DNA of 64,000 nt, taken from contig OZ245728.1 of assembly GCA_965227245.1 (NCBI GenBank), positions 3,306,946 through 3,370,945 on the forward strand, read 5' to 3'. Each line of letters begins with the position of its first letter. Within the stretch, counting starts at the first letter, position 1. Both the position numbers and the translations under genes were made by a program. The notes beneath the pieces are model-generated. The model was not told the origin of the DNA, searched no databases, and worked only from the letters and a program-made list of their open reading frames with translations. The stretch is from Rhodospirillales bacterium (lineage in GTDB: Bacteria; Pseudomonadota; Alphaproteobacteria; Rhodospirillales; Casp-alpha2). Positions 42,694 through 43,530 of this stretch are shown piece after piece.

Positions 42694-43530
42694 TCAAGTC
42701 TCTTTTTCAGCTTTTGCACTGTCCAGTTCGGCCCGGAGATGCTTGATTTCCCGGGTCAGGGTCGTCAGGTCCTCTTTGACGTCGGCCAACTCGGCCTTGA
42801 TGATCGACCGGGTCTCGTTCTCGCTTCTCTCGTATGAATAATTCTGCTGGATCAGCTGCATGCTGTCGACCAGCACTGCCGTAAACAGGTTGAGAATGGC
42901 AAATGCGGTCATCAACATATACGGGATGAACAACAGCACGGAATACGGATGCGTTTCCATCACCGGACGCACCACTTCGGCGGCCCATCCTTCAAGAGTC
43001 ATCAACTGGAACAGTGTCAGCATCGAACGCCCGATGGACCCGAACAGTTCCGGATAATCCACACCGTACAAGTGCGTGACGATGACCGACGATATATAGG
43101 AAATGATCAGCAGGAGTGCGACGATGGAGCCGATCTGCGGCAGCGAGCGAATCATCGCCGCGACGACATGGCGCATCCGCGGGACCAGTGAGATTACATG
43201 CAGGACCCGCAGAATCCGGAGCGCCCTGAGCGCCGAGAATGCGTTCCCGGACGGCAGGAACGAAACCGAAATGATGATGACGTCGAAGATGTTCCAGGCT
43301 TCACTGAAGAAGCGACGGCCGCGGGCAAACAGCCGCGCCGATACCTCGATCACAAAAATATACGGGATTTCATCATTGATGCGCCCGATCCACGAACCGT
43401 ACGTGGACATGATTTCGTCAGACGTTTCAAGCCCGAGGGTCAGGGCATTGACGAACAGCAGAATCACAATGAATCGTTGCGATATTGGATGATCAACGAG
43501 ATATCCAACCTTCTCGCGAATACCGTTCAT
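42694..43530 (-). CDS. Single-domain voltage-gated cation channel (BacNav/NaChBac family ion transporter)
   Basis: Six TM segments, WNIFD in S3, S4 LRALRILRVLH, LFQLMTLEGW pore motif, NLFTAVLV S6, C-terminal coiled coil. Confidence 0.93.
   Translation of the reverse strand: MNGIREKVGYLVDHPISQRFIVILLFVNALTLGLETSDEIMSTYGSWIGRINDEIPYIFVIEVSARLFARGRRFFSEAWNIFDVIIISVSFLPSGNAFSALRALRILRVLHVISLVPRMRHVVAAMIRSLPQIGSIVALLLIISYISSVIVTHLYGVDYPELFGSIGRSMLTLFQLMTLEGWAAEVVRPVMETHPYSVLLFIPYMLMTAFAILNLFTAVLVDSMQLIQQNYSYERSENETRSIIKAELADVKEDLTTLTREIKHLRAELDSAKAEKET

What the first reader, a model, noticed from the sequence alone, without database searches (positions are those of the whole stretch)
42976..42999. 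BacNav-family channel with a TLEGW selectivity filter, a possible Ca2+-permeable or non-selective channel
Seen: the filter reads TLEGWAAE. Established: Na+-selective BacNavs (NaChBac, NavAb, NavMs) have TLESW; the prokaryotic Ca2+ channel CavMr has TLEGW, with the Gly implicated in Ca2+ selectivity; eukaryotic Cav repeats have T(M/F)EGW. Here the Gly filter sits on NavAb-like P2 spacing (WAAEVVRP versus WSMGIVRP) with an extra Glu. Inference: altered ion selectivity, notable next to a giant protein with probably Ca2+-dependent domains.
Basis: partly seen in the sequence, partly recalled or inferred. Interest (0 to 1): 0.65.

Follow-up and report, generated by a model that had tools for sequence, protein, structure and literature searches.

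The report
Sodium-channel paralogue with calcium-channel-like filter
A marine bacterium carries, beside its ordinary voltage-gated sodium channel, a second conserved copy whose ion filter reads like that of calcium channels (TLEGWAAE). Published mutants with the same change suggest it still conducts mainly sodium and excludes calcium less strictly, so it is a useful natural test case rather than a proven calcium channel.

Summary
Window 42976-42999 (minus strand) encodes TLEGWAAE, residues 178-185 of an intact 278-aa one-domain voltage-gated channel (42694-43530, minus).

The channel is a NavAb-type BacNav, not a CavMr/AnclNav-type channel:
- Its best single-domain matches among solved structures, by sequence and by predicted fold, are NavMs and NavAb.
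- It has the short NavAb-type P2-S6 linker.
- The tree places it in the NavAb-like group with 100/97 support, but the AU test against a CavMr grouping gives p = 0.08, so that grouping is not formally rejected.

It belongs to a tight subfamily found in one genus of uncultured marine Rhodospirillales, and it sits alongside a canonical TLESWSMG paralogue 52 kb away. The filter is held by strong purifying selection (dN/dS 0.04-0.20), and Gly4 and the acidic residue at position 8 are invariant.

Published mutants argue against Gly4 alone giving Ca2+ selectivity on this scaffold:
- NaChBac S192G keeps PCa/PNa at 0.15.
- NavAb S178G has PCa/PNa below 0.05.
- NavAb S178G/M181A, the closest engineered analogue, has PCa/PNa 0.47 and PLi/PNa 1.0.

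Best reading: a Na+/Li+-conducting channel with relaxed exclusion of divalent cations and altered gating (R4 is His; the T206 position is Ala). It is probably co-transcribed with a TerB-like protein. A link to the giant adhesin next door is unsupported. Interest is moderate.

The parts
42694..43530 (-). Gene for a 278-aa one-domain voltage-gated cation channel (BacNav paralogue A): S1-S4 voltage sensor, S5-P1-filter-P2-S6 pore, and a C-terminal helix or coiled coil.
   Evidence: ORF and translation. Pfam Ion_trans 4.6e-39. NavMs 5hvx E 5.6e-57 and NavAb E 2e-54 over nearly the full length. AF2 model pLDDT 79, with NavAb/NavMs as best folds, TM up to 0.85. dN/dS 0.04-0.20 against 12 orthologues.
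42976..42999 (-). Selectivity filter and start of P2: T178 L179 E180 G181 W182 A183 A184 E185. These correspond to NavAb T175-G182, so the changes are S178G, S180A, M181A and G182E.
   Evidence: Gly is present in 70 of 70 clade members, against Ser in 53 of 53 canonical TLESWSMG relatives. Position 8 is always Glu or Asp in the clade. Positions 6 and 7 vary among small residues (A/S/G), with one Gln at position 7.
43198..43200 (-). His111 codon, in place of the fourth S4 gating arginine (NavAb R108).
   Evidence: Alignment: His in 70 of 70 clade members, Arg in 53 of 53 canonical relatives. The sister sequence P0123 and the look-alike P0076 keep Arg.
42904..42906 (-). Ala209 codon at the position of NavAb Thr206 in S6. 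The T206A mutation slows NavAb inactivation.
   Evidence: Ala in 100% of the clade, against Ser/Thr in canonical relatives. The effect of T206A is as cited in PMC12919392.
42166..42582 (-). TerB-like 138-aa gene, 111 nt downstream on the same strand. It is a probable operon partner and carries two conserved (A/S)D...E motifs.
   Evidence: Pfam TerB 8.1e-8. AF2 pLDDT 86, with TerB-like proteins 2ou3 and 2h5n as best folds. No terminator-like site lies between the two genes. It co-occurs perfectly with channel A across the genus and keeps the same order in 12 of 12 intact loci.
43670..43697 (-). Candidate sigma-70-like promoter upstream of the channel gene.
   Evidence: Consensus scan only, 9 of 12 matches. 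This is weak evidence.

Best explanation
This is a functional, homotetrameric, voltage-gated cation channel of the NavAb-like BacNav group. It is a diverged paralogue, called 'channel A' here, that a genus of uncultured marine Rhodospirillales keeps next to a canonical TLESWSMG sodium channel.

Its pore retains the high-field-strength Glu ring (E180). It has lost the Ser hydroxyl ring (S178G) and the Met that enforces divalent exclusion (M181A), and it has gained an outer ring of four acidic residues (E185). Several bulky aromatic residues of the outer pore are also replaced (NavAb W159, Y168 and W195 become L, L and V).

Inferred from mutants of NavAb and NaChBac with the same changes: the channel still excludes K+ and conducts Na+ and Li+ about equally. 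It excludes Ca2+ less strictly than canonical BacNavs, with PCa/PNa expected roughly between 0.1 and 10. The E185 ring would add a low-affinity divalent site that either raises Ca2+ flux or produces Ca2+ block.

Gating is probably altered too. The fourth gating charge is His, and the residue at the T206 position is Ala, which should slow inactivation. The channel is probably co-transcribed with a small cytosolic TerB-like, presumably metal-binding, protein that may act as a partner or sensor.

Shown here: identity, fold, placement, conservation, paralogy and gene linkage. Inferred: selectivity, gating and the role of the TerB-like protein.
For: Family and fold.
Placement in the NavAb-like group: 98* in the quick tree and 100/97* in the careful tree. 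BLAST gives 181-223 bits to NavAb-like references against 108 bits to CavMr, and there is no CavMr-type loop insert.
Paralogy: the same genome encodes a canonical TLESWSMGIVRPVMETYPY channel at C1:3401392-3402207. Most genomes of the genus hold both copies.
Selection: dN/dS 0.04-0.20 with saturated dS, and synonymous turnover at every filter codon. Clade-specific fixed substitutions are listed.
Experimental analogues: NaChBac LEGWAS PCa/PNa 0.15, unchanged (PMC2229573). NavAb S178G PLi/PNa 2.18 and PCa/PNa below 0.05; NavAb S178G/M181A PLi/PNa 0.99, PCa/PNa 0.47, PK and PCs below 0.05 (PMC12919392). LESWAD shows that one extra outer acidic ring can raise PCa/PNa to 17.
Acidic partner residue: among natural relatives, Gly4 comes with an acidic residue at positions 6-8 in 49 of 56 cases, against 6 of 50 for Ser4.
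TerB linkage.
Against: No electrophysiology exists for this or any native NavAb-like Gly4 channel. Filter sequence alone is a poor predictor of selectivity, as PMC8002053 states explicitly, and NavPp and CavMr behave opposite to charge-count expectations.

No published mutant found here tests an acidic residue at position 8, and I could not determine its side-chain orientation because the tools return no tetramer model or coordinates.

The 'beacon' classification (PMC10120453) would predict Ca2+ selectivity for Gly at HFS+1.

The association between Gly4 and an acidic residue is not significant on phylogenetically independent pairs (p 0.25).

The AU test does not formally reject grouping this clade with the AnclNavs (p 0.082).

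The other 19 alphaproteobacterial genomes with an MTLEGW motif show no MTLESW-type copy, judged by motif only. In those lineages the Gly4 type may simply serve as the ordinary sodium channel.
Confidence: 0.55

Rival explanations
1. It is a native Ca2+-selective or strongly Ca2+-preferring channel (PCa/PNa above 10) built on the NavAb scaffold. The Gly4-widened entrance and the E185 ring would together create a high-affinity divalent site, as in CavMr and in Cav domains I and III.
For: Gly4 is the key determinant in CavMr, where G4S lowers PCa/PNa 18-fold, and CavMr D7M (TLEGWVM) remains Ca2+-selective with a single acidic residue per subunit. The beacon rule predicts Ca2+ selectivity for Gly at HFS+1. 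An extra acidic ring raises PCa/PNa in NaChBac (LESWAD 17). Natural Gly4 filters nearly always carry an extra acidic residue at positions 6-8. The sister lineage P0123 has TLEDW, the CaChBac-like motif. A canonical Na+ paralogue in the same genome leaves this copy free to specialise. The partner is a TerB-like putative metal-binding protein.
Against: Gly4 on NaChBac and on NavAb gives no Ca2+ permeability, and adding M181A gives only 0.47. Val6, which supports selectivity in CavMr, is Ala here. There is no CavMr-type L6 loop and the tree places the channel in a different clade. No published mutant found here tests an acidic residue at position 8.
Confidence: 0.15
2. It is a conventional Na+-selective BacNav (PCa/PNa below 0.1). 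The filter changes would be functionally near-neutral or would tune only Li+/Na+ handling or conductance. The reason for keeping two paralogues would lie in gating (R4H, Ala at the T206 position), pH sensitivity or regulation.
For: NaChBac S192G is unchanged and NavAb S178G stays impermeable to Ca2+. NaChBac already has Ala6 and a small residue at position 7 (TLESWAS) and is Na+-selective. Strong clade-specific changes lie in the voltage sensor and S6. The other 19 alphaproteobacterial genomes with an MTLEGW motif show no MTLESW-type copy, by motif only.
Against: Five consecutive filter and P2 residues differ from the canonical sequence and are fixed under purifying selection. M181A on NavAb raises PCa/PNa at least 7-fold. 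An invariant acidic ring at position 8 is hard to explain if the pore function were unchanged.
Confidence: 0.22
3. It is a Na+ channel that external divalent cations block: a NavPp-like low-affinity Ca2+ or Mg2+ block at the E185 ring. Seawater Ca2+ and Mg2+ would then set the current.
For: NavPp shows that extra acidic filter residues can give block instead of permeation. The outer acidic ring is conserved. The organism is marine (metagenome sources).
Against: NavPp belongs to the AnclNav clade and has a different pore backbone. There are no data for this scaffold. This reading overlaps the best explanation rather than excluding it.
Confidence: 0.08

Closest known systems
NavAb (Arcobacter butzleri) and NavMs (Magnetococcus marinus): canonical NavAb-like BacNavs
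   Same: 6TM one-domain architecture, the T-L-E-x-W filter with the Glu ring, the P2 motif xxVRPVME with a short P2-S6 linker, and a C-terminal helix or coiled coil. They are the best single-domain matches by sequence and by fold and fall in the same major clade.
   Different: About 33-34% identity by BLAST. In NavAb numbering the window channel has S178G, S180A, M181A, G182E, I183V, R108H, T206A, W195V, W159L and Y168L, all fixed in its clade.
'LivAb' (NavAb S178G) and LivAb-M181A: engineered mutants (PMC12919392; PDB 9uc3)
   Same: TLEGW on a NavAb scaffold. The double mutant TLEGWSA is the closest tested filter to TLEGWAA. Both were studied with T206A, which this channel carries natively.
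   Different: They are engineered, not natural. They have Ser6 rather than Ala6, no Glu at position 8, and keep R4. The measured values (PLi/PNa 2.18 falling to 0.99, PCa/PNa below 0.05 rising to 0.47) are for those constructs only.
NaChBac S192G (LEGWAS) mutant (Yue et al. 2002, PMC2229573)
   Same: The filter LEGWA is identical through position 6, and the residue at position 7 is small.
   Different: It comes from the Bacillus-group scaffold, has Gly rather than Glu at position 8, and its PCa/PNa is unchanged at 0.15.
CavMr (Meiothermus ruber): native prokaryotic Ca2+ channel of the AnclNav group
   Same: TLEGW, a homotetrameric one-domain channel, and one extra acidic residue just after the filter.
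   Different: 27.6% identity. It falls on the other side of the 100/97* split. CavMr has Val6, Asp7 and a P2-S6 stretch about 17 residues longer that contains two Cys, all absent here.
Eukaryotic Cav domains I and III (T-M/F/L-E-G-W-x-D/E; Cav3 domain I is ITLEGWVD)
   Same: An E-G-W core followed by an acidic residue in P2. Cav3.2 and Cav3.3 domain I align to this filter.
   Different: They are four-domain asymmetric pores with long extracellular loops, and the acidic residue is at position 7, not 8.
Uncharacterised natural NavAb-like TLEGW channels (Tabrizicola TLEGWADA; Desulfonatronospira and Thioalkalivibrio TLEGWSED; TARA-ocean P0076 TLEGWAAE)
   Same: Gly4 plus an acidic residue at positions 6-8 on the NavAb-type P2. 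P0076 has the identical stretch TLEGWAAEVVRP.
   Different: They belong to separate lineages. P0076 keeps R4 and W195. None has a TerB-like neighbour, and none has been tested functionally.

Membership tests
BacNav, NavAb-like group | One-domain 6TM Ion_trans architecture with P1-filter-P2 and a C-terminal helix. | tested here: met
   Pfam Ion_trans 4.6e-39. Near full-length alignment to NavMs and NavAb. The AF2 model matches NavAb/NavMs with TM up to 0.85, and its helices match S1-S6, P1, P2 and the C-terminal domain.
BacNav, NavAb-like group | Phylogenetic placement with NavAb, NavMs and NavSp, apart from the Bacillus and AnclNav groups. | tested here: met
   The split has 98* support in the quick tree and 100/97* in the careful tree. 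Caveat: the AU test of the alternative (window clade plus AnclNav) gives p 0.082, so that alternative is disfavoured (delta lnL 26.6) but not formally rejected.
BacNav, NavAb-like group | Filter TLESW(S/A)(M/S)G: Glu ring plus Ser ring. | tested here: not met
   The Glu ring is present (E180). Ser4 is Gly, Met7 is Ala and Gly8 is Glu.
BacNav, NavAb-like group | Four Arg gating charges at every third position of S4. | tested here: not met
   R102, R105 and R108 are present. The fourth position is His111, invariant in the clade.
BacNav, NavAb-like group | Short P2-S6 linker with the (I/V)VRP(V/L)ME motif. | tested here: met
   The sequence VVRPVMETHPY aligns without gaps to IVRPLMEVYPY of NavAb.
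BacNav, NavAb-like group | Na+ selectivity (PCa/PNa about 0.15 or lower). | not testable with these tools
   This needs electrophysiology. Analogue mutants give values from below 0.05 to 0.47.
AnclNav / CavMr-type prokaryotic Cav | Membership of the AnclNav clade. | tested here: not met
   The channel lies on the other side of the 100/97* split. It scores 108 bits and 27.6% identity to CavMr, against 181-223 bits to NavAb-like references. The AU test gives p 0.082.
AnclNav / CavMr-type prokaryotic Cav | Filter TLEGWVD: Gly4, Val6 and Asp7. | tested here: not met
   Gly4 is present. Position 6 is Ala, position 7 is Ala, and the acidic residue is shifted to position 8.
AnclNav / CavMr-type prokaryotic Cav | Extended P2-S6 (L6) loop with a Cys pair. 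| tested here: not met
   The alignment shows no insert and no Cys in this region. The feature is described in PMC10120453.
AnclNav / CavMr-type prokaryotic Cav | High Ca2+ selectivity (PCa/PNa above 100). | not testable with these tools
   This needs electrophysiology.
TerB domain family (the downstream gene) | TerB helical fold with paired acidic motifs. | tested here: met
   Pfam TerB 8.1e-8, above the cut-off but covering only part of the model. The invariant motifs ADG...E and SD...E are present. The AF2 model best matches the TerB-like proteins 2ou3 and 2h5n, with probability 1.0 and TM 0.5-0.6. Metal binding itself was not tested.

The most novel reading that the evidence does not exclude
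Channel A is a native Ca2+-preferring voltage-gated channel on the NavAb scaffold. It would reach divalent selectivity by a third route: Gly4 plus loss of Met7 plus an acidic ring at position 8. It would work with its co-transcribed TerB-like protein as a two-gene Ca2+ or metal entry-and-sensing module. The same TerB-like family would serve more generally as cytosolic partners of ion channels, because all three paralogues in this genome sit beside channel genes.
Probability: 0.12. Interest if true: 0.75.

Novelty: new variant of a known kind. Interest (0 to 1): 0.45.

Why it matters
Whether a Gly right after the filter Glu is a universal switch for Ca2+ selectivity is an open and currently contradictory question. 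It holds in CavMr and is proposed as a rule for one-domain channels (PMC10120453). It fails in the NaChBac S192G and NavAb S178G mutants.

This gene is a naturally evolved, selection-maintained NavAb-type channel that combines Gly4 with loss of Met181 and a new acidic ring. A canonical sister channel in the same cell serves as an internal control. NavAb-type channels express and crystallise well, so recording and solving this protein and its reversion mutants would test the rule directly on a tractable scaffold. It would also give the first functional data for a widespread class of native Gly4 BacNavs that nobody has characterised. The conserved R4-to-His gating charge and the TerB-like partner are additional testable features.

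Tried and rejected
(1) CavMr/AnclNav membership. Rejected on tree placement, BLAST scores and the missing L6 insert. The AU test alone was not decisive (p 0.082).

(2) Recent duplication of the canonical paralogue B. Rejected: paralogue B sits elsewhere in the NavAb-like group.

(3) Functional link to the giant LamG/cadherin-like protein. Only within-genus synteny, divergent orientation and an intervening tRNA-Thr gene were found, so it was not pursued.

(4) A general TerB-BacNav association. The distant TLEGW relatives P0076 and P0123 have no TerB neighbour, and a 51%-identical TerB homologue is not next to a channel. The link is therefore limited to this lineage.

(5) Correlated evolution of Gly4 with an acidic residue at positions 6-8. 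The raw association is strong, but too few independent pairs lie on supported branches (p 0.25).

(6) NCBIfam gave no hit for the channel or the TerB-like protein. A PDB sequence search found nothing for the TerB-like protein.

(7) A literature search for LEGWAA, LEGWSA, LEGWSG, LEGWSE and LEGWAD found nothing relevant.

(9) The side-chain orientation of E185 could not be assessed. The tools return no coordinates and no tetramer model.
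Full report
OBSERVATION. Window 42976-42999, read on the minus strand, is ACT CTT GAA GGA TGG GCC GCC GAA, which translates to TLEGWAAE. These are residues 178-185 of an intact 278-aa ORF at 42694-43530, minus strand.

WHAT THE PROTEIN IS.
- It hits Pfam Ion_trans at 4.6e-39.
- Among solved structures, the best single-domain matches are NavMs (5hvx, E 5.6e-57, residues 6-233) and NavAb (E 2e-54, residues 10-260). The four-domain T-type Ca channels rank first only because their repeats add up.
- An AlphaFold2 model (pLDDT 79) shows the expected S1-S6, P1, P2 and a long C-terminal helix. 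Its best fold matches are NavAb and NavMs, with TM up to 0.85.
- Aligned with reference channels from the source data of Shimomura et al. 2020, the P2-S6 stretch WAAEVVRPVMETHPY aligns residue for residue with NavAb WSMGIVRPLMEVYPY. It lacks the roughly 17-residue Cys-containing insert of CavMr and NavPp.

PHYLOGENY. A 127-sequence quick tree separates {Bacillus BacNavs + AnclNavs, including CavMr and NavPp} from a NavAb-like group with 98* support. A 62-sequence careful tree (LG+C20, ultrafast bootstrap/SH-aLRT) gives the same split with 100/97* support. The window protein falls in the NavAb-like group.
- Its own clade has 100/98* support and sits on a long stem.
- Its sister is a single metagenomic sequence with a TLEDWAGG filter (P0123, 100/99*).
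- BLAST scores agree: 181-223 bits to NavAb-like references, against 108 bits and 27.6% identity to CavMr.
- An AU test of the alternative, window clade plus AnclNavs as one clade, costs 26.6 lnL units but gives p = 0.082. The alternative is therefore disfavoured, not formally rejected.

DISTRIBUTION AND PARALOGY.
- Homologues at 65-100% identity number about 70 clusters at 90% identity. All carry TLEGW(A/S)(A/S/G/Q)(E/D), and 67 of those listed carry exactly TLEGWAAE. Identity then drops abruptly below 50%.
- In the 50%-identity library the whole subfamily collapses to one representative.
- The hosts are uncultured marine 'Rhodospirillales bacterium' MAGs forming one GTDB genus. The nearest named relative is Thalassospiraceae bacterium LMO-JJ14, at 79%.
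- The window's genome (4.26 Mb, one contig) encodes three Ion_trans proteins: this one, a canonical BacNav with TLESWSMGIVRPVMETYPY 52 kb away, and a Kv-type channel with TTIGYGD.
- Most genomes of the genus carry both BacNav paralogues about 50 kb apart. The canonical paralogue is not the sister of channel A, so channel A is not a recent duplicate of it.

SELECTION.
- Against 12 orthologues, dN/dS is 0.04-0.20 with dS of 0.9 or more. All four Gly codons occur at G181, both Glu codons at E185, and all four Ala codons across positions 6 and 7. The residues are therefore actively maintained.
- Seventy clade members were compared with 53 canonical TLESWSMG relatives. In NavAb numbering, the clade-specific fixed changes are S178G, S180A, M181A, G182E, I183V, R108H (the fourth S4 charge), T206A, W195V, W159L, Y168L and G129Q.
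- The pore's outer vestibule and the gating machinery are thus both remodelled. The difference is not a single Ser-to-Gly change.

WHAT THE LITERATURE SAYS ABOUT THIS FILTER.
- CavMr (TLEGWVD) has PCa/PNa of 218. G4S lowers it to 12, V6T to 40, and D7M leaves it at 144 (PMC7041947).
- A 2023 classification proposes that Gly at this 'beacon' position makes one-domain channels Ca2+-selective (PMC10120453).
- Direct tests on canonical scaffolds contradict that proposal:
  - NaChBac S192G (LEGWAS) has an unchanged PCa/PNa of 0.15 (PMC2229573).
  - NavAb S178G (TLEGWSM, 'LivAb') keeps PCa/PNa below 0.05 and gains only Li+ preference, with PLi/PNa 2.18 (PMC12919392).
- In the same NavAb study, removing Met181 raises PCa/PNa to 0.36-0.47. 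S178G/M181A (TLEGWSA) gives PLi/PNa 0.99 and PCa/PNa 0.47, with K+ and Cs+ still excluded. That construct is the closest tested analogue of TLEGWAA, and it was recorded in a T206A background, which this channel carries natively.
- One extra ring of acidic residues in P2 can matter: NaChBac LESWAD has PCa/PNa of 17. Extra acidic residues can also produce Ca2+ block rather than permeation, as in NavPp.
- I found no published mutant with an acidic residue at position 8.

MOST LIKELY MECHANISM (inference). A voltage-gated Na+/Li+-conducting, K+-excluding channel with a widened filter entrance and weakened divalent exclusion. Moderate Ca2+ permeability or Ca2+-dependent modulation is expected. Its gating probably differs from the canonical paralogue: His at R4 means less, and possibly pH-titratable, gating charge, and Ala at the T206 position should slow inactivation. 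I put this at 0.55. The rivals are true Ca2+ selectivity at 0.15, plain Na+ selectivity with divergence in gating only at 0.22, and a divalent-blocked Na+ channel at 0.08.

HOW COMMON IS TLEGW?
- It is not rare. Among the single-domain 50%-identity representatives nearest to the query, TLEGW is the second commonest filter, with 13 against 33 for TLESW.
- NavAb-like TLEGW sequences were already in the 2020 eLife dataset: Tabrizicola, Desulfonatronospira, Thioalkalivibrio and Reichenbachiella.
- An MTLEGW-coding pattern occurs in 20 of 401 sampled alphaproteobacterial genomes, spanning 18 of 308 genera. The reversed-pattern control gave one hit.
- On the tree, Gly4 is scattered, with at least 29 state changes on a poorly resolved backbone.
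- Gly4 comes with an acidic residue at positions 6-8 in 49 of 56 cases, against 6 of 50 for Ser4. Independent pairs on supported branches are too few for significance (p 0.25).
- A TARA-ocean lineage (P0076, 50% identity) has the identical TLEGWAAEVVRP on an otherwise canonical background with R4 and W195 retained. The eight-residue type therefore recurs.
- Of the 20 MTLEGW genomes, only the window's also has an MTLESW-type copy. Coexistence of both types is special to this genus.
- None of these native Gly4 NavAb-like channels has been characterised, as far as the searched literature shows.

GENE NEIGHBOURHOOD.
- The channel lies in the tuf/tRNA cluster. The order is rpoBC ... tufA, tRNA-Gly, tRNA-Tyr, rlmB (SpoU methylase), a TerB-like gene, the channel, tRNA-Thr, and then the giant LamG/cadherin-like surface protein on the other strand.
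- This order is kept in all 12 intact orthologous loci.
- The 138-aa TerB-like gene lies 111 nt downstream on the same strand, with no terminator-like site between the two genes.
- Within the genus, channel A and this TerB-like gene are present together in 12 genomes and absent together in the rest. In one lineage the channel is a pseudogene and the TerB-like gene is gone.
- The adhesin adjacency is also conserved, but it is divergent, has a tRNA gene in between, and no functional tie is visible. I treat it as synteny only.

SIDE OBSERVATION ON THE TerB-LIKE FAMILY. All three TerB-like paralogues in this genome lie next to an ion-channel gene.
- The first lies downstream of BacNav A (this window).
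- The second lies directly downstream of an 864-aa periplasmic-binding-domain/MscS-like channel, about 2 kb from BacNav B.
- The third lies divergent from a 1150-aa PBP/MscS-like/cNMP-binding channel.
- The same adjacency recurs in two other genomes, one from the same genus (G015) and one from another genus of the family (G024). It does not hold for distant homologues.
- The TerB-like protein folds confidently (pLDDT 86), resembles the TerB-like structures 2ou3 and 2h5n, and keeps two invariant acidic motifs.
- A role as a cytosolic partner or ion sensor of channels is a hypothesis only.

VERDICT. The data support at most moderate Ca2+ permeability. The suggested link to the giant protein is unsupported. 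Novelty: a new variant of a known kind. Interest is moderate (0.45), mainly because the channel is a ready-made natural test of the 'glycine equals calcium' rule on a scaffold that can be crystallised.

Noticed in passing
window 43198-43200 (minus strand); S4 spans about 43180-43230: The fourth S4 gating arginine (NavAb R108) is His111. His occurs in 70 of 70 members of the TLEGWAAE clade, against Arg in 53 of 53 canonical relatives. The sister P0123 and the look-alike P0076 keep Arg. This could make gating pH-sensitive or open a proton gating pore.
   Followed up: partly
window 42904-42906 (minus strand), Ala209: The clade carries Ala at the NavAb T206 position in 100% of members. T206A is the mutation used to slow NavAb inactivation (PMC12919392). 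The bulky outer-pore residues NavAb W195, W159 and Y168 are replaced by V, L and L.
   Followed up: partly
window 42166-42582; own genome C1:3404382-3404744 (L064 5802-6245) and C1:511223-511579 (L070 4224-4664): All three TerB-like paralogues of this genome sit next to an ion-channel gene: BacNav A, an 864-aa PBP-MscS-like channel, and a 1150-aa PBP-MscS-like-cNMP-binding channel. The same adjacency occurs in genomes G015 and G024. This suggests a lineage-specific family of channel partners.
   Followed up: partly
L044 945-1590 (UBA4468 contig); G016:C117:1798-2452: In one species of the genus, channel A is degraded: it has an in-frame TAA, a missing segment, and only 52% identity over the N-terminus. 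The TerB-like gene between it and rlmB is gone. The two genes appear to have been lost together.
   Followed up: partly
L065 4001-4888 (TARA ocean scaffold; protein P0076): A different marine lineage, 50% identical, has exactly TLEGWAAEVVRP but keeps R4, W195 and Ser/Thr at the T206 position. It lies next to a two-component system and methylcitrate-cycle genes. This is either convergence on, or deep retention of, the same eight-residue filter type.
   Followed up: partly
own genome C1:3401392-3402207 (L064 2890-3732, minus strand): The canonical BacNav paralogue B (TLESWSMG, four Arg in S4) lies between argS and a polyamine gene cluster: two AdoMet-decarboxylase-like genes and a spermidine-synthase-like gene (annotated from sequence appearance; only the 126-aa one was checked by Pfam). 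It is about 2 kb from the MscS-like channel and its TerB-like gene.
   Followed up: no
window 44470-50823 and 50862-63998 (plus strand): Two very long ORFs lie in different frames, 38 nt apart. The first contains LamG/ConA-like, cadherin-like and He_PIG Ig domains. Earlier notes of this scan read them as one frameshifted gene for a giant adhesin of about 7,400 aa. I did not test the frameshift.
   Followed up: no
window 39455-43963: The channel-TerB pair sits inside the conserved tRNA/tuf cluster, between rlmB and tRNA-Thr(TGT) at 43888-43963. tRNA-Tyr, tRNA-Gly, tufA and tRNA-Trp lie on the other side.
   Followed up: no
alphaproteobacterial genomes G043-G368: An MTLEGW-coding pattern occurs in 20 of 401 sampled alphaproteobacterial species. 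Only the window's genome also has an MTLESW-type copy. Elsewhere the Gly4 type seems to be the sole BacNav of this kind.
   Followed up: partly
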